Source: a virus (Duplodnaviria; Heunggongvirae; Uroviricota; Caudoviricetes). From it: DNA of 24,040 nucleotides. Positions 15,803-21,422 of the stretch are shown piece after piece (the stretch's first letter is position 1; each line of letters begins with the position of its first letter). The notes under the pieces are model-generated. The model did not search any database. It saw only the letters and a list, made by a program, of their open reading frames with translations, and had not been told where the DNA came from. The stretch is from IMG/VR virus record IMGVR_UViG_2740892439_000001, positions 1 through 24,040 of that record; one strand, 5' to 3'. The position numbers and the translations under genes are program-made.

Positions 15803-16867
15803 ATGTCACAGAACTGGATGAGACATTTCGAGCTGCAGCTTGTGGACGGGAACGGTCAGGGAATTGAGCTAAGTGATTTCAAAGTCACCTTTACGATCGA
15901 CTGGTTCAACATCAGCAGCGCGTCCCGGGTAGGGACTATCAAAATTTATAACCTCTCGGCAGATACTGTGAACCGAATCACCGGGAAGGAATTTTCGAAA
16001 GTGCGGCTGATTGCCGGTTACGACGGTATCGCGCCGGAGGTGGCGGCAAGCGACGTCGGGACCGTGCGCGAAGTCGACGCGGCAGATGTGGGCCAGAGTG
16101 ATGGCCGCAACTACGGGCTGATTTTCAGCGGAGAAATTCGCTACTCGGTCACAGGAAAAGACAGCCCTATTGATTCCTATGTCCTGATTCAGGCAGCAGA
16201 TACGGATCTGGCATTTGCCACCAGTATAACCTCACAGACGCTGGCTGCCGGTTACACGGTCGCTGATGTGAACCGTGCGCTGATGAAAGACTTCGAAGCC
16301 AAAGGCGCGACCGAAGGCCTGACGCCTGAAATGCCTGCTACTGTATTCCCCCGGGGGCGGGTGCTCTTTGGCATGACGCGGCATCTTATGGATAACGTAG
16401 CCGGGCAATGTGGCGCAACATGGCAATTCGTGGACGGTCAACGCCAGATGGTGGCGAATAACGAATATGTTCATGAAGCGATTGTGCTCAACAGCGCCAC
16501 CGGGCTTATCGGCATGCCGCAGCAGACTATCGGCAACGGCGTAAACGTCCGCGCGCTTATTAATCCGAACATCCGGGTTAATGGGCTCATTCAACTGGAT
16601 CAGGCTTCCGTATATCGCACCGCGTTGTCGAACAACGATATTGCGATGGCTGGTGGGCAGATCACCGACCAGAACACGGACGGAAATATCACGCTAAGCG
16701 GCACCACAGCACAACCTGCCAGCATCGCAACGGATGGCGTTTATATTGTGCGCGGGATTATGTACACTGGCGATACAAGGGGCCAGGCGTGGTACATGGA
16801 TATGATGTGCGAAGCGCGTGGCGCGGCGGATCTTCAAAGTCAAGGAGCAATGAATCGGTGGGGATAA
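15803..16867 (+). CDS. Baseplate hub-like protein
   Basis: 354 aa; position between the tape-measure-distal genes and the central spike. Confidence 0.5.
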   Translation: MSQNWMRHFELQLVDGNGQGIELSDFKVTFTIDWFNISSASRVGTIKIYNLSADTVNRITGKEFSKVRLIAGYDGIAPEVAASDVGTVREVDAADVGQSDGRNYGLIFSGEIRYSVTGKDSPIDSYVLIQAADTDLAFATSITSQTLAAGYTVADVNRALMKDFEAKGATEGLTPEMPATVFPRGRVLFGMTRHLMDNVAGQCGATWQFVDGQRQMVANNEYVHEAIVLNSATGLIGMPQQTIGNGVNVRALINPNIRVNGLIQLDQASVYRTALSNNDIAMAGGQITDQNTDGNITLSGTTAQPASIATDGVYIVRGIMYTGDTRGQAWYMDMMCEARGAADLQSQGAMNRWG

Positions 16868-16869
16868 GA

Positions 16870-17400
16870 TTGAATAAGAAAGCCATTTTTATTGCAATAA
16901 GTTTACTTGTTCCGATGTCGGGATTAGCCGCTCCTGGGAAGTATGAAAAAATGGCTGTTGATTTAATGGATCAGCAAAAGTTTACGCAGTGGCAACATTA
17001 CGCCTCTGCTACTCCTTTTTTCGCTATGAATGGTCGCAGATTCGCCATGACCATTGATGATTTCGCGGATATAGTCAGCAACTCCTTTCAAGAATGCGAA
17101 GATCTGGATGCCTACACCAATCGGAAAGGAACTACGGATGATTGTAAGTCCTATGTTTACAAAGGCATAAAGGAGTGGGTAAACCTCTCTCAAGATAAGT
17201 CTGTTAGCGATACAGCATGGAAAATGGGCCAGCGCTATGCTTCAACACACGTAATCCTATTGCCCATAAAAACGCATGGGATTTCAATGGGATGGCGGCC
17301 GGTATTCGCGTTGCTAAATCTCAAGGTTATTAAGTCATGGATGCGCCGAAAATCATCGGATCTTTCCCGTGTAAAAAAGTGGCTGGGCGATGATTTTTGA
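16870..17400 (+). CDS. Accessory secreted protein with N-terminal signal peptide (function unknown)
   Basis: TTG start with a ggtgggga SD 6 nt upstream; N-terminus (M)NKKAIFIAISLLVPMSGLAAPG is a typical Sec signal; mature part has two Cys; about 33 percent GC in the first 60 nt versus about 70 percent in sampled structural-gene sequence. Confidence 0.55.
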   Translation: MNKKAIFIAISLLVPMSGLAAPGKYEKMAVDLMDQQKFTQWQHYASATPFFAMNGRRFAMTIDDFADIVSNSFQECEDLDAYTNRKGTTDDCKSYVYKGIKEWVNLSQDKSVSDTAWKMGQRYASTHVILLPIKTHGISMGWRPVFALLNLKVIKSWMRRKSSDLSRVKKWLGDDF

Positions 17401-17558
17401 CGTCCATAATATTATGGATGAACTGTTGCCAATTGCGCTAATTTTAACAAAATAATACTGGTTAACGCATTTTTTGAACCATCTGTACACAGTAGTTGTC
17501 TATACTTTACCTTAAAGGTAAACTCTGCGCTCCACTGATGTTCACTATGGGAGGGGAT
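17401..17558 (+). promoter_or_regulatory. AT-rich intergenic region with promoter-like hexamers and two palindromes (17404-17417 and 17506-17522)
   Basis: ccataatattatgg is a perfect 14-bp palindrome; tttacctt-a-aaggtaaa has perfect 8-bp arms. Candidate sigma70 elements: ttgtct (17496-17501), 17-nt spacer, taaact (17519-17524). gggagggg SD precedes the ATG at 17559. Confidence 0.4.
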
Positions 17559-17798
17559 ATGAGGGAAATCGTTAATCGTTACTTAGCCGCTGCCGGTAGT
17601 GTTATGGACATTATGCCGACTACAGATTACTGGCAATATGCTGCTTCTGGATCTGATTGTCGGGCAATAAGAAGTGATGTTAAAGTCATTGCAAGTGACA
17701 TGAACAGAGTTATCAGGTATGAGTTCAAAACCCCGCAAGCAGGCGGCCGTTCTCAAAAAGCGTCAGGAAAACAAAGCGTCGCAAAAAGCCGTTCCTGA
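17559..17798 (+). CDS. Small hypothetical protein (accessory cassette)
   Basis: ATG at 17559 with a strong SD; about 80 aa; the last ~27 codons overlap the next gene and look low-complexity, so the true 3' end is uncertain. Confidence 0.4.
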   Translation: MREIVNRYLAAAGSVMDIMPTTDYWQYAASGSDCRAIRSDVKVIASDMNRVIRYEFKTPQAGGRSQKASGKQSVAKSRS

Positions 17799-18291
17799 TT
17801 CGGATGGTATCGACGAAAATATTGATTCCTCGGAATATGATGAGTCTCAGGAAGTAGTGGAAAAGCTGTCTGCAGTTGCCAACCTTGATCCTGAGCTAAA
17901 ATCGAAGTTAACACCTGAACTTCTTGAGAGAGTTTCTAAGAATCCGAAGGTTATTGCCATGTTTCAGCAGGAGTCTTTTCAGGGACCACTCCCACCTCCT
18001 GCTATGCTCTTACAATATAATCAAATATTACCCGGCGGCGCTGAGAGAATTTTCAGGCTAACCGAAAAAGAGCAAGAGCATAGGCATAAGACGCAAAGCG
18101 ATGCATTACTTGGTGCGGTTTCACGCGACAAACGTGGGCAATGGATGGGATTTTGCATTGCAATGGTAGTGCTTATAATGGCTGCGTTTTTTGCTAATCG
18201 CGGTAACACTTGGTTCGCAGGTACTCTTGCTACTTTAGATCTCGTAGGATTAACTACAGTGTTTGTTTATGGTAGGAAGAAACCTAAATAA
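17719..18291 (+). CDS. DUF2335-like membrane protein (charged N-terminal domain plus two C-terminal transmembrane helices)
   Basis: 190 aa; motif GPLPPPAMLLQYNQILPGGAERIFRLTEKEQEHRH recalled as the DUF2335 signature; hydrophobic stretches WMGFCIAMVVLIMAAFFA and WFAGTLATLDLVGLTTVFVY; followed by a terminator. Confidence 0.6.
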   Translation: MSSKPRKQAAVLKKRQENKASQKAVPDSDGIDENIDSSEYDESQEVVEKLSAVANLDPELKSKLTPELLERVSKNPKVIAMFQQESFQGPLPPPAMLLQYNQILPGGAERIFRLTEKEQEHRHKTQSDALLGAVSRDKRGQWMGFCIAMVVLIMAAFFANRGNTWFAGTLATLDLVGLTTVFVYGRKKPK

Positions 18292-18306
18292 TCCATACAT
18301 CCTTTC

Positions 18307-18329
18307 AAACCCGCTTCGGCGGGTTTTTT
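18307..18329 (+). terminator. Strong rho-independent terminator
   Basis: aaacccgc-ttcg-gcgggttt stem-loop followed by a T-run, 16 nt after the stop of the DUF2335-like gene. Confidence 0.75.
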
Positions 18330-18348
18330 GCTTTCTGGAGCCTACTAA

Positions 18349-19103
18349 ATGGCAGTATCTGACCAGACCCGCAGCGGCGACCTTGCCGAAACATTCAAAT
18401 CTGAACGGGAAACAACAAAGAACCAGATCCGAGTCGCTTTGCCTGGCATCGTCCAGTCATTCGATCCTGACGCTGTGACGGCGGTTGTGCAGCTTCTATC
18501 CGTTCGGTTGAAACGGATAACGACGGCAATCGCGTTACCAAAAATTACCCGCTGCTGGTGGATGTGCCGGTGGTATTCCCGCGCGGCGGAGGCTGTACGT
18601 TGACTTTTCCGGTAAAAGCTGGGGATGAGTGTCTTGTCGTTTTTGCCGATCGTTGTATTGATTTCTGGTGGCAGAGCGGCGGGATACAGGAGACGATTGA
18701 TAACAGAATGCATGATTTATCGGATGCGTTCTGTATCGTCGGTCCGCAGTCTCTGGCGCAGAAAATCAGCGGAATCAGCACCAGCGCCGCGCAACTGCGT
18801 ACTGATGATGGCGCTGCGTTTGTGGAAGTGGCCGCAGGCCATAACATCACGGTTAAAACCCCCGGCGCGCTGACGGCGACAGCAGAAGGAGGAACCACGA
18901 TCACATCACCCACCATCACGCTAAACGGCAACGTGACAATAAACGGGAATCTCTCTCAGGGGATGGGCGAAAGCGGCGGCACCGCGACGATGCTTGGCCC
19001 TGTCACGGTGACTAACGATGTAAAAGCTGGTGGTAAGAGCCTGATGACGCACACGCACGGCGGAGTACAGACCGGCGGCGGTAACACAGGAGCGCCTAAC
19101 TGA
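18349..19103 (+). CDS. Baseplate central spike protein (gp138 / Mu gp45 / P2 gpV-like), interrupted by an apparent 1-nt indel near 18493-18497
   Basis: N-terminal ...IRVALPGIVQSFDPDAVTAVVQ (frame 1) and YPLLVDVPVVFPRGGGCTLTFPVKAGDECLVVFADRCIDFWW (frame 0) together form one OB-fold spike domain; Gly/Thr-rich beta-helix-like C-terminus; ggag SD before the ATG at 18349. Confidence 0.7.
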
Positions 19104-19456: not shown

Positions 19457-20652
19457 TGGCTCTGAACCTTGATTCTCTCGGTTTATCTGCAAAGGTAACC
19501 GCGGAGGGGATCAGTGCGCCTGATTATCAGACGATACTCAGCACCCTGATTAGCTATTTTCAGCAGATTTATGGCAGTGATGCCTACCTCGAACCGGACA
19601 GCAAAGACGGCCAGATGGTCGCTCTGGTGGCTCTGGCCATTCACGATGCCAACAACACGGCCATTTCTGTTTACCGGTCATTTTCTCCGTCGACGGCGCT
19701 GGACGATGCATTAACCAGTAACGTCAAAATTAACGGCATCACTCGCCGTGCTGCGACAAACTCTACGGTCGATGAGCTGATTGAAGGCGAAGCCGGAACG
19801 TTAATCACAAACGGGTCTGTGAAAGATGCCAACGGTATCATCTGGAATCTTCCTGCTCAGGTGACAATTGGTATTGATGGGACGGTTATTGCTACAGCGA
19901 CGTGTTCTGTTGCTGGTGCTGTGGCCGCCCCTGCCGGGTCAGTCAATAAGATAAACACCCCGACACGTGGTTGGGTATCAGTAACTAACCCGCAAGCGGC
20001 TACGGTAGGCGTTGCTGCCGAAACAAATGCTGAATTGCGTGTCCGGCAATCACAGAGCGTTGCTTTACCGTCTCTGACGCCGTTTGAGGCGGTAGATGGC
20101 GCGATAGCAAATATCAGCGGCGTAACGCGACACAAGCTGTATGAGAACGATACAGATACCACTGATGCAAATGGCCTGCCTCCGCACTCAATCGCCGCCA
20201 TTGTAGAAGGTGGTGATGCGACGGTCATTGCAAACAGCATTCGTGGTGTGAAAGGGCAGGGCGTAACACCCTACGGTAGTACGGTGATTGTTGTGCCTGA
20301 TAAGTACGGAAACCCTCACTCGGTAGGTTTTTCAAGGCCGGTCGATGTACCCATTTACGTCAAAATCACTATCGAACCTCTTACGGGCTACACATCCCAG
20401 GTTGGCGAAGAGATAAAGGCGGCTGTATCTGCCTACATTAACTCACTGGCAATCGGCGCCAGCGTTCTTCTCAGTCGCGTTTACTCACCGGCTAACCTTG
20501 GTGTTGTCAGTGGTGGTAATGCCAGGTATTACGACATTACCGAGTTGCTGATCGGGACGTCTGCCGGTGGCGTAGCTGCGGCAAACGTGGATATTGCCTT
20601 TGACCAGTCAGCATCCTGTGCCGTCAGCAATATTAATCTGGTGGTCTCATGA
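19456..20652 (+). CDS. Baseplate J-like protein
   Basis: 398 aa; position after the gp25-like gene; size and order match J / gp47-like baseplate wedge proteins. Confidence 0.6.
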   Translation: MALNLDSLGLSAKVTAEGISAPDYQTILSTLISYFQQIYGSDAYLEPDSKDGQMVALVALAIHDANNTAISVYRSFSPSTALDDALTSNVKINGITRRAATNSTVDELIEGEAGTLITNGSVKDANGIIWNLPAQVTIGIDGTVIATATCSVAGAVAAPAGSVNKINTPTRGWVSVTNPQAATVGVAAETNAELRVRQSQSVALPSLTPFEAVDGAIANISGVTRHKLYENDTDTTDANGLPPHSIAAIVEGGDATVIANSIRGVKGQGVTPYGSTVIVVPDKYGNPHSVGFSRPVDVPIYVKITIEPLTGYTSQVGEEIKAAVSAYINSLAIGASVLLSRVYSPANLGVVSGGNARYYDITELLIGTSAGGVAAANVDIAFDQSASCAVSNINLVVS

Positions 20653-21422
20653 GCAGATACACTGACCGCATAACAAACTACCACGCCGGTAAACCAAAGT
20701 TCTTTGCACACGTTGATCTGTCCACCAGGCCACTGAGCGATGTTTCCGATGCAATGTCACGGCTAATACCCGATTTTGATATTGATACCGCCATTGGCGT
20801 GCAGCTTGACGTTGTAGGCGAATGGGTTGGTCGTTCCCGTCGCGTGGCAACACCGGTAACCGGGATTTATTTTTCGTGGGACACCGAACGGGTTGGCTGG
20901 GATCAGGGGGTCTGGCAGGGACCATATGACCCAAACGACGGTTTTATCGATCTAAGCGATGAAATATATCGGCTAATGCTGAAGGTGAAAGTGGCAATAA
21001 ACAACTGGGATGGTCAGAACGATTCGCTGCCTTCAATTCTTGATGCCGCCCTTGCCGGGTCCGGGATCCGCATGGCTATTGTCGACAACCAGGATATGTC
21101 GATTTCCATCTGGATACTCGGTGACCCATCGGTAGCCCTAAGTGAAATAGACCGGTTAATTCTGGATAGCGCCGTCAATAAAGGCCCCTTTATCGCATTA
21201 CCGGCAGGTTACGTGCCTTCGCGCTATGACATTAACCCGATTGACCAGGTTAACAGCGAGCTATGGTGGGCGATTCGGAACGGTTATATGACGGTTAAAG
21301 CCGCAGGGGTTCGTGTCCGTGAAATAGAGACCGTCAGTGATGGTTATCAGTTTTTTGGCTTCGATATCGAAAATGACTATATCGCTGGCTTCGACCGCGG
21401 GTCATGGGGAGAGAGATTTTAA
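20649..21422 (+). CDS. Baseplate/tail protein (DUF2612-like)
   Basis: 257 aa; ATGA coupling; position between the J-like and tail fiber genes. Confidence 0.5.
   Translation: MSRYTDRITNYHAGKPKFFAHVDLSTRPLSDVSDAMSRLIPDFDIDTAIGVQLDVVGEWVGRSRRVATPVTGIYFSWDTERVGWDQGVWQGPYDPNDGFIDLSDEIYRLMLKVKVAINNWDGQNDSLPSILDAALAGSGIRMAIVDNQDMSISIWILGDPSVALSEIDRLILDSAVNKGPFIALPAGYVPSRYDINPIDQVNSELWWAIRNGYMTVKAAGVRVREIETVSDGYQFFGFDIENDYIAGFDRGSWGERF

What the first reader, a model, noticed from the sequence alone, without database searches (positions are those of the whole stretch)
17401..17558. Two palindromes in the cassette's internal promoter region
The 158-nt spacer between the first and second cassette genes holds a perfect 14-bp palindrome ccataatattatgg (17404-17417) and a 17-bp inverted repeat tttacctt-a-aaggtaaa (17506-17522). 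The second lies between candidate sigma70 hexamers (ttgtct at 17496-17501, taaact at 17519-17524) and the gggagggg SD, which is classic operator placement. This suggests regulated, late-operon-independent expression of the two downstream genes.
Basis: seen in the sequence. Interest (0 to 1): 0.45.

Follow-up and report, generated by a model that had tools for sequence, protein, structure and literature searches.

The report
Borrowed phage-repressor operator in a moron promoter
One of the two palindromes matches the repressor binding site of a different phage family (epsilon15/phiV10) and sits on the promoter of a small accessory gene pair inserted in this prophage's tail genes, while the other palindrome shows no sign of function.

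Summary
Both palindromes are real. The first is in fact 16 bp (17403-17418). They are the only two perfect palindromes with arms of 8 or more in the 24-kb window.

Palindrome 2 (17506-17522, core TTACC-TTAAA-GGTAA) matches the operator motif of the epsilon15/phiV10 (Uetakevirus) immunity repressor. The motif occurs 14 times in phiV10 against 0.6 expected. It occurs in tandem between the repressor gene and the cro-like gene. In the epsilon15 record it is annotated as a repressor binding site. In Uetakevirus-type prophages it also precedes the homologous gene pair (small gene plus DUF2335).

In the window it overlaps the best sigma-70-like promoter (TTGTCT-17-TAAACT) of an autonomous cassette, about 17390-18326, which consists of a promoter, a real but unannotated small gene, a DUF2335 membrane protein gene and a terminator. 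The host prophage belongs to a different phage type. None of 16 complete E. coli genomes with this cassette carries the matching repressor, so the operator is probably unoccupied and the promoter constitutive unless a phiV10-like phage is present.

Palindrome 1 is confined to near-identical copies. Its right arm is missing in the closest divergent relative, so it is probably not functional. The small protein is unlikely to be the binding protein. This is an ordinary kind of element in an interesting, heterologous setting.

The parts
15803..16867 (+). Baseplate hub-like late gene; left conserved flank of the cassette slot
   Evidence: Weak Pfam E217_GP41 hit. Conserved in all relatives.
16870..17400 (+). 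Cassette gene 1 (signal-peptide-like N terminus, no family). Frameshifted in the window: relatives encode 154 aa ending at TAA 17331-17333.
   Evidence: 1-base deletion near 17240 compared with L001, L004 and L005. No Pfam hit.
17337..17393 (+). Relic 3' end (last 18 codons, MDAPKIIGSFPCKKVAGR*) of the small gene that normally follows the hub gene. It is a shared mosaic joint.
   Evidence: This stretch alone is present in 184 E. coli genomes, lying under a 'hypothetical protein' CDS. Break points fall at 17336, 17377 and 17387.
17403..17418 (.). Palindrome 1, TCCATAATATTATGGA. It lies at the left edge of the DUF2335 cassette and is probably not functional.
   Evidence: Perfect 8+8 palindrome. 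A 47-nt indel compared with L024 starts at its centre. Found only in near-identical copies. RNA hairpin is weak, -4.6 kcal/mol, with no U tract.
17426..17453 (+). Secondary promoter-like site, TTGCCA-16-CAAAAT. It lies inside the 47-nt stretch that L024 lacks.
   Evidence: Consensus scan gives 9 of 12. PWM score 9.2 bits. Missing in L024.
17496..17524 (+). Best sigma-70-like promoter, TTGTCT-17-TAAACT. An alternative -10, TATACT, lies at 17501-17506.
   Evidence: 11.9 bits, the top 1 of 258 tiles of the window with an approximate PWM. It falls below the simple scan threshold at 8 of 12. TATA(C/A)T is conserved in L024 and L167.
17506..17522 (.). Palindrome 2. The core TTACC-N5-GGTAA (17507-17521) matches the epsilon15/phiV10-type repressor operator.
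   Evidence: Unique in the window. Matches the majority base at every spacer position of 28 phiV10/ZX5 sites. The motif is annotated as a repressor site in NC_004775.2.
17549..17556 (+). Shine-Dalgarno sequence GGGAGGGG of the small gene
   Evidence: Read directly from the sequence. Conserved in L024 and L167.
17559..17798 (+). Small gene (79 aa), a member of an unnamed family (phrog_26284). It is a conserved upstream partner of DUF2335 genes and is not annotated by PGAP.
   Evidence: PHROG E-value 5.9e-12. Homologues lie next to DUF2335 in 73 fetched loci. 57 protein clusters across Enterobacterales. AF2 model is helical with low confidence.
17719..18291 (+). DUF2335 membrane protein gene (190 aa). 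It overlaps the small gene by 80 nt.
   Evidence: Pfam PF10097 E-value 1.8e-18. phrog_3996, 'moron, membrane protein'.
18307..18333 (+). Intrinsic terminator closing the cassette. This is the right mosaic boundary.
   Evidence: Stem AAACCCGC-TTCG-GCGGGTTT followed by a T run. Homology with other cassette types resumes at 18304-18317.
18349..19103 (+). Spike gene; right conserved flank. It is split into two ORFs in the window.
   Evidence: The Pfam spike N-terminal domain is split over the two ORFs. 1-base gap near 18492 compared with L001.

Best explanation
Palindrome 2 is a binding site of the kind used by the immunity repressor (and probably the Cro-like protein) of epsilon15/phiV10-type temperate podoviruses (Uetakevirus). 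It lies on the core promoter of a self-contained cassette: promoter, small gene, DUF2335 membrane protein gene, terminator. That cassette is inserted between the hub and spike genes of a lambdoid prophage with a contractile-tail baseplate.

A repressor dimer bound at 17507-17521 would cover either the spacer and -10 of TTGTCT-17-TAAACT, or the start site if TATACT is the -10. Either way it would exclude RNA polymerase.

This prophage type does not encode that repressor. The site is therefore most likely unoccupied, and the pair is transcribed constitutively from its own promoter, independently of the late operon. It would be shut off only when a phiV10-like phage is resident or infecting.

Palindrome 1 is most likely a non-functional by-product at the cassette's left junction.

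Shown: the motif identity, its genome-wide distribution in Uetakeviruses, the cassette's autonomy, and the absence of the repressor gene in relatives. Inferred: binding, promoter activity and the direction of regulation.
For: 1. Exact match to the motif. The dyad is unique in the window. My estimate of a chance exact match in the 225-nt spacer is about 2e-4.

2. The motif behaves as a phage-wide operator.
- phiV10 has 14 sites with at most 1 mismatch against 0.61 expected; 0 of 100 shuffles reach that.
- vB_EcoP_ZX5 has 14 sites.
- The prophage of E. coli strain 4/4 has 9 exact sites. Three of its sites lie in tandem, 24 bp apart, between the HTH repressor gene and the divergent cro-like gene.

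3. The epsilon15 record annotates ATTACC-N5-GGTAAT as 'protein_bind, repressor, lysogeny'.

4. The ZX5/phiV10 repressor has been shown by experiment to block the lytic cycle (PMC9782041).

5. The same dyad precedes the homologous small-gene/DUF2335 pair in Uetakevirus-type contexts: ZX5, L027, L080/L114, L059, L168-L171.

6. The window's spacer TTAAA matches the majority base of 28 phage sites at every position.

7. The dyad overlaps the best promoter-like site in the window.

8. Cassette autonomy is supported by low GC, the terminator, the mosaic break points and alternative cargos in the same slot.

9. No cognate repressor gene was found on the chromosome record in any of 16 complete genomes with this cassette. 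Two complete relatives of the prophage contain only this one dyad.
Against: - No binding or transcription data exist for this site.
- It is a single site, whereas phage control regions often have two or three.
- Apart from the dyad, the window's promoter region shares no sequence with Uetakevirus loci, so the site could be ancient, convergent or a relic.
- A more distant cassette of the same lineage in the same slot (L167) lacks the dyad, so it is not indispensable.
- Conservation between the window and L024 is not significant on its own: 5 differences in 89 nt.
- The window does not include the immunity region of its own prophage, so absence of the repressor is inferred from relatives only.
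- The promoter PWM was written from memory and is approximate.
Confidence: 0.6

Rival explanations
1. Autoregulation: the small 17559 protein (alone or with DUF2335) binds palindrome 2 and represses its own operon, as antitoxins do in type II toxin-antitoxin operons.
For: The gene order fits: a small first gene overlapping a second gene, with a palindrome on the promoter. Strong palindromes are enriched upstream of the pair in many lineages: arms of 8 or more occur in 26% of 27 representatives against 1.2% of shuffles.
Against: - Dyad type does not follow the small protein. The window's protein is no closer to the proteins of the other TTACC-N5-GGTAA lineages (35-38% identity) than to proteins whose genes carry other dyads (36-51%).
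- Small proteins that are 50-71% identical to each other sit behind four different dyads.
- There is no DNA-binding family hit, and the helical AF2 model has low confidence.
- The small-protein motif is fused to the DUF2335 membrane domain in L078 and L081.
- The same dyad occurs all over Uetakevirus genomes, including phiV10, which has no DUF2335 gene.
Confidence: 0.06
2. A host transcription factor binds palindrome 2. One candidate is MqsA, whose site I recall as ACCT-N3-AGGT, a pattern contained in the palindrome.
For: ACCT-TAA-AGGT is present at 17509-17519. The MqsA motif is recalled from memory and was not checked. A host factor would explain conservation of the dyad across different phage types.
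Against: Orthologous sites keep TTACC/GGTAA but not ACCT/AGGT; examples are TTACCGATATGGTAA and TTACCGAAGTGGTAA. The tandem arrangement between the repressor and cro-like genes, and the density of sites in Uetakevirus genomes, point to a phage-encoded protein. No literature hit was found for the dyad.
Confidence: 0.04
3. The palindromes act in RNA, as a 5' stabilising hairpin, a translational control element, or a 3' hairpin or terminator for the upstream gene.
For: Both can form 6-bp hairpins. Palindrome 1 lies 10 nt after the stop codon of the relic gene.
Against: - The hairpins are weak (-4.6 and -4.4 kcal/mol) and not better than shuffles (z from -1.2 to -1.8).
- There is no U tract and no terminator call, and no Rfam match in the spacer.
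- Across lineages the same five bases of each arm are kept without compensatory change, which points to sequence-specific recognition.
Confidence: 0.03
4. Both palindromes are chance products of AT-rich intergenic DNA or of recombination at the cassette junction, with no function.
For: One palindrome with arms of 8 is expected somewhere in 24 kb (0.75). Palindrome 1 is not conserved, and its centre coincides with an indel boundary. L167 lacks the dyad.
Against: For palindrome 2, an exact and near-consensus match to an annotated operator, upstream of the same gene pair that carries this operator in Uetakeviruses, is very unlikely by chance. For palindrome 1, this rival is my preferred reading.
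Confidence: 0.1

Closest known systems
Repressor binding sites of Salmonella phage epsilon15 and E. coli phage phiV10 (Uetakevirus): ATTACC-N5-GGTAAT, annotated as protein_bind/repressor in NC_004775.2
   Same: The core TTACC-N5-GGTAA is identical and the spacer is near-consensus. The site lies in an intergenic control region on a promoter. In Uetakevirus-type prophages the same site precedes the homologous small-gene/DUF2335 pair.
   Different: Here it is a single site in a different phage type (a lambdoid prophage with a baseplate and contractile-tail gene set). No cognate repressor gene was found in relatives. The outer bases are T and A rather than A and T, a variant also seen in phiV10 at 20497. 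Binding has not been tested, and even in epsilon15 the annotation is a prediction.
Morons of lambdoid phages: a promoter, gene and terminator inserted in the late operon, as first described for HK97/HK022. This comparison rests on general knowledge.
   Same: The cassette is inserted between two conserved adjacent late genes. It has lower GC, its own promoter-like site and its own intrinsic terminator, and the slot holds alternative cargos in relatives.
   Different: The promoter carries an operator of a foreign immunity type. In its Uetakevirus homologues the pair appears to be repressor-controlled, not expressed in the lysogen.
Lambda-type OR/OL operators: 17-bp dyads overlapping promoters and bound by both CI and Cro
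   Same: The dyad has two-fold symmetry and overlaps core promoter elements. In the source phage family there are three tandem copies, 24 bp apart, between divergent repressor and cro-like genes.
   Different: The half-site and spacing differ (TTACC-N5-GGTAA). The repressor has two HTH regions and no S24 self-cleavage domain, and induction appears to work through anti-repressors (PMC9782041). In the window the site is solitary.

Membership tests
Uetakevirus (epsilon15/phiV10) repressor operator | 15-17-bp dyad (A/T)TTACC-N5-GGTAA(T/A) | tested here: met
   17507-17521 is an exact match. The spacer matches the majority base of 28 phage sites at every position. The motif is annotated in NC_004775.2.
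Uetakevirus (epsilon15/phiV10) repressor operator | Lies in an intergenic control region overlapping or adjoining a promoter | tested here: met
   The site overlaps the top-scoring sigma-70-like site, TTGTCT-17-TAAACT. The promoter is predicted only.
Uetakevirus (epsilon15/phiV10) repressor operator | Cognate repressor encoded by the same element or the same cell | tested here: not met
   0 of 16 complete genomes with this cassette have the repressor gene on the same record. The complete prophages L109 and L176 have other immunity genes and only this one dyad. The window itself lacks the immunity region.
Uetakevirus (epsilon15/phiV10) repressor operator | Several sites per genome, tandem at the main switch | tested here: not met
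   There is a single exact site in the window. The only other hit has 1 mismatch, at 20678 inside a gene.
Uetakevirus (epsilon15/phiV10) repressor operator | Bound by the repressor protein | not testable with these tools
   This needs EMSA, ChIP or a reporter assay.
Moron (autonomous cassette in a late operon) | Present or absent between conserved neighbouring late genes | tested here: met
   The slot between the hub gene (with its small downstream gene) and the spike gene carries five or more different cargos in relatives. Break points lie at about 17388 and 18304-18317.
Moron (autonomous cassette in a late operon) | Own promoter and own terminator | tested here: inconclusive
   The terminator is clear. 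The promoter is a consensus-level prediction. Most lineages of the pair carry a promoter-like site of 8-12 bits.
Moron (autonomous cassette in a late operon) | Base composition different from the flanks | tested here: met
   GC is 0.39-0.46 inside against 0.52-0.59 outside.
Autoregulated toxin-antitoxin-like operon | First gene product is a DNA-binding protein whose operator co-varies with it | tested here: not met
   No DNA-binding family hit. No co-variation. The motif is fused to the membrane protein in L078 and L081. The AF2 model is uninformative (pLDDT 61).
Intrinsic terminator (palindrome 1) | GC-rich stem followed by a U tract | tested here: not met
   AT-rich 6-bp stem at -4.6 kcal/mol with no T run; not called by the scan.

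The most novel reading that the evidence does not exclude
The dyad is kept by selection as a cross-prophage switch. A cassette carried by one prophage would be constitutively on, but would be silenced (or otherwise retuned) by the repressor or Cro-like protein of an incoming or co-resident phiV10-like podovirus. That immunity type is present in about 10% of complete E. coli genomes. One phage's accessory membrane-protein pair would then be wired to the immunity circuit of another phage family.
Probability: 0.2. Interest if true: 0.6.

Novelty: new member of a known kind. Interest (0 to 1): 0.35.

Why it matters
It gives a concrete, testable identity to an anonymous palindrome, and it names the protein to test: the phiV10/ZX5 repressor, not the cassette's own small protein.

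It shows that accessory cassettes can travel with operators of a foreign immunity system. That could couple gene expression in one prophage to the presence of another.

It also brings to light a widespread gene pair that is largely unannotated: a small protein of the phrog_26284 family together with a DUF2335 membrane protein. In Uetakeviruses this pair sits in the repressor-controlled accessory island, next to the anti-repressor operon.

Tried and rejected
- Word-based protein search with the small ORF found nothing. The family appeared only through PHROGs, neighbouring ORFs and a profile search.
- The genome-contig scan with DUF2335 returned only distant relatives, which were useless for intergenic comparison.
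- PADLOC gave no defence-system hit.
- The four papers that mention DUF2335 were listed by title only and not read, so they gave no lead on function.
- The AF2 model of the small protein had too little confidence for a fold search.
- Rfam found nothing in the spacer. A sub-threshold rsmX hit at the terminator is chance.
- RNA folding gave no significant structure.
- Literature searches for the dyad written in several ways found nothing. The epsilon15 genome paper could not be opened, and the phiV10 genome paper did not appear in the library searches.
- I first suspected Bro-N or Rha proteins, the 86-89-aa gene behind a LexA box, or a 69-aa protein as the binding protein. I dropped these once the tandem sites at the immunity switch were seen.
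- I considered that the prophage's own CI might bind the dyad. I rejected this because the operators of the BEN2908 relative look like AGTAC-N5-GTACT and no other dyad exists in that prophage.
- Searching for palindrome 1 in viral contigs, and in 1.4 Mb of fetched loci, found only the same near-identical copies.

Full report
**Observation**

- Palindrome 1 is perfect and one base longer on each side than reported: TCCATAATATTATGGA, 17403-17418.
- Palindrome 2 is TTTACCTT-A-AAGGTAAA, 17506-17522.
- TTGTCT (17496-17501), TAAACT (17519-17524), GGGAGGGG (17549-17556) and the ATG at 17559 are all in place.

These are the only two perfect palindromes with arms of 8 or more in the 24-kb window. A first-order Markov model expects 0.75 per window and 0.009 in the spacer, and no simulation out of 20,000 put two there. 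One such palindrome somewhere in the window is therefore unremarkable. Two in the same spacer is not.

**Context**

The window is the late region of an E. coli prophage: terminase, portal, head, tail, baseplate. Complete relatives are lambdoid, with CI/Cro and Q genes, and carry a contractile-tail baseplate.

The stretch 16868-18330 has low GC, 0.39-0.46 against 0.52-0.59 in the flanks. It lies between a hub-like gene and the spike gene. In relatives this slot holds at least five different cargos: the DUF2335 unit, a 243+142-aa pair, a YafO toxin pair, a 184+56-aa pair and a 170-aa gene.

Break points show two independent units.
- Gene 1 runs from 16870 to about 17387.
- The DUF2335 unit runs from about 17388 to the terminator at 18307-18326.

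In between, 17337-17393 is the relic 3' end of the small gene that normally follows the hub gene. That stretch alone is present in 184 E. coli genomes.

Gene 1 has a 1-base deletion near 17240. Its true stop is at 17331-17333, so the '158-nt spacer' is partly an artefact of a frameshift.

**The genes downstream**

The 79-aa ORF at 17559-17798 is not annotated by PGAP in any relative, and a word-based search found nothing. It is nevertheless a real gene.
- It matches phrog_26284 with E-value 5.9e-12.
- Homologous small ORFs lie directly upstream of DUF2335 genes, often overlapping them, in 73 fetched loci.
- A profile search found 57 clusters across Enterobacterales, all labelled 'hypothetical'.

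In L078 and L081 the small protein's conserved N-terminal motif is fused to the DUF2335 domain. This suggests a partner or subunit of the membrane protein. No DNA-binding family matches, and the AF2 model is helical but of low confidence (pLDDT 61).

The second gene is a DUF2335 membrane protein: Pfam E-value 1.8e-18, phrog_3996. Its function is not known: the phage records that carry a homologue give none, and the four papers that mention DUF2335 were not read.

**Palindrome 1**

Only 16 of 5,426 complete E. coli genomes carry the whole upstream stretch, all at 98.7% identity or more. The best divergent relative is L024, whose DUF2335 protein is 81% identical. In L024 a 47-nt indel begins exactly at the centre of palindrome 1, and the right arm is absent.

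The palindrome with one flanking base on each side occurs in viral contigs only in the same near-identical prophages. Nothing within 2 mismatches occurs in 1.4 Mb of fetched loci. As RNA it forms a weak AU hairpin without a U tract.

I conclude that it is probably a by-product at the cassette's left junction.

**Palindrome 2**

Its core TTACC-N5-GGTAA is unique in the window. It is conserved in L024.

It recurs 37-45 nt before the small-gene start in three other lineages whose flanking sequences are unrelated: L027/L055, L080/L057 and L059, the last with one mismatch. In those contigs it also precedes neighbouring transcription units:
- a small gene behind a LexA-box-like sequence;
- an operon of isrK-like RNA, C4 antisense RNA and a Bro-N or Rha anti-repressor.

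L114 has 3 exact copies against 0.016 expected.

E. coli prophages with the D-lineage pair have four such sites in 1.7 kb. One of them is identical to the window's 15-mer.

Following one of these prophages (strain 4/4) through its whole length showed 9 exact dyads. Three of its dyads, one exact, lie in tandem 24 bp apart in the 155-bp gap between a 194-aa HTH repressor gene and a divergent cro-like gene.

That repressor is 99.5% identical to phiV10 p40 and to ZX5 ORF21.
- phiV10 has 14 dyads against 0.61 expected, in nearly every intergenic control region.
- ZX5 has 14. One lies 22 nt upstream of its own small-gene/DUF2335 pair.

ZX5 ORF21 was shown by overexpression to block the lytic cycle. 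The paper did not define its operators (PMC9782041).

The epsilon15 RefSeq record carries depositor features 'protein_bind, repressor, lysogeny'. Their sequences are ATTACC-N5-GGTAAT.

The window's spacer TTAAA matches the majority base at every position of 28 phiV10/ZX5 sites.

Palindrome 2 is therefore a near-consensus Uetakevirus-type repressor site.

**Who binds, and what it does here**

Dyad type does not follow the small protein. The window's protein is no closer to those of the other TTACC-N5-GGTAA lineages (35-38% identity) than to proteins whose genes carry other dyads. Closely related small proteins sit behind four different dyads. Autoregulation is therefore unlikely.

Two complete relatives of the host prophage have other immunity genes and only this one dyad. 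None of the 16 complete genomes with this cassette carries the phiV10-type repressor gene on the same record. That immunity region is present in 540 of 5,426 genomes overall.

Apart from the dyad, the window's promoter region shares nothing with Uetakevirus loci. A more distant cassette in the same slot, L167, lacks the dyad.

My reading has three parts:
- The site would bind a phiV10-type repressor or Cro and would block RNA polymerase.
- In this prophage it is normally unoccupied, so the pair is expressed from its own promoter.
- Whether the site is kept for cross-talk with phiV10-like phages or is a relic remains open.

**Promoter**

With an approximate PWM written from memory, TTGTCT-17-TAAACT scores 11.9 bits. 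That is the best in the region and the top 1 of 258 tiles of the window. It falls below the simple scan threshold at 8 of 12.

An alternative -10 lies immediately 5' of the dyad: TATACT at 17501-17506, which reads TATAAT in L024 and L167 and TACACT in L031. It is conserved in the lineage even where TAAACT is not. This placement resembles the Uetakevirus island promoters, where a -10-like hexamer abuts the dyad (my reading).

Either way the dyad overlaps the polymerase footprint. Most lineages of the pair carry a promoter-like site of 8-12 bits. Strong palindromes are enriched upstream: arms of 8 or more occur in 26% of lineages against 1.2% of shuffles.

**Other rivals**

- RNA structure: weak and not significant, with no Rfam match.
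- Host factor such as MqsA: the ACCT/AGGT pattern is not kept in orthologous sites.
- Chance: acceptable for palindrome 1, not for palindrome 2.

**Verdict**

Palindrome 1 has no support. This is a new instance of a known kind of element in a heterologous setting, and is of moderate interest.

Noticed in passing
window 17235-17245 (gene 1, 16870-17400): A 1-base deletion compared with three relatives shifts the frame. The ORF therefore runs 67 nt past its normal stop (TAA 17331-17333). This is either a pseudogene or a sequencing error.
   Followed up: yes
window 18349-19103, near 18492: The spike gene is split into two overlapping ORFs by an apparent 1-base gap compared with L001. This is the second frameshift in 1.3 kb, so the prophage may be decaying or the assembly may be error-prone.
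   Followed up: partly
window 17559-17798: This conserved small gene (phrog_26284; 57 clusters in Enterobacterales) is missing from RefSeq annotation of all close relatives. It overlaps the DUF2335 gene by 80 nt in another frame.
   Followed up: yes
L078 2435-2884 and L081 2354-2803: The N-terminal motif of the small protein (AxGSxLDIxPxxDY) is fused in one ORF to the DUF2335 domain. This is a Rosetta-stone hint that the two proteins work together.
   Followed up: partly
window 16868-18330, compared with L004, L005, L110-L112: The slot between the hub and spike genes is a hot spot for alternative cargos: a YafO toxin pair, a 243+142-aa pair, a 184+56-aa pair and a 170-aa gene. They all join at the same conserved ~55-nt 3' end of the small gene after the hub gene.
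   Followed up: partly
window 17344-17358 and 17388-17402: A 15-nt inverted repeat (87% complementary, 29-nt loop) spans the relic gene end. It forms the most stable predicted local RNA structure but is not significant (z = -1.5).
   Followed up: partly
L027 1225-1945; L114 5793-6510; L168-L171 1266-1932: The accessory island next to the tail-fibre or tailspike-like gene in podovirus-type (Uetakevirus-like) prophages contains three units. There is an 85-89-aa gene behind a LexA-box-like TACTGT-N8-ACAGT. There is an isrK-like RNA and a C4 antisense RNA ahead of a Bro-N or Rha anti-repressor. Then comes the DUF2335 pair. Each unit is preceded by the repressor dyad.
   Followed up: partly
L177 (phiV10) 87-119; L178 (ZX5) 19625-19657: Two adjacent repressor dyads lie just inside the annotated 5' end of the terminase small subunit gene. 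Either the start codon is misplaced or the packaging operon is under direct repressor control.
   Followed up: no
L045-L052, L054, L065, L082, 70-120 nt upstream of the small gene: A second recurrent dyad, ACAAC-N4-GTTGT, sits on or near the promoter of the pair in several other lineages. In L045 it lies in the spacer of TTGATC-17-TATACT. It may be the operator of another phage regulator.
   Followed up: partly
L119-L152 (DUF2335 match at 4-465): In many viral contigs the DUF2335 gene is the very first gene of the contig, that is, at a prophage end. This is typical of accessory genes near attachment sites.
   Followed up: no
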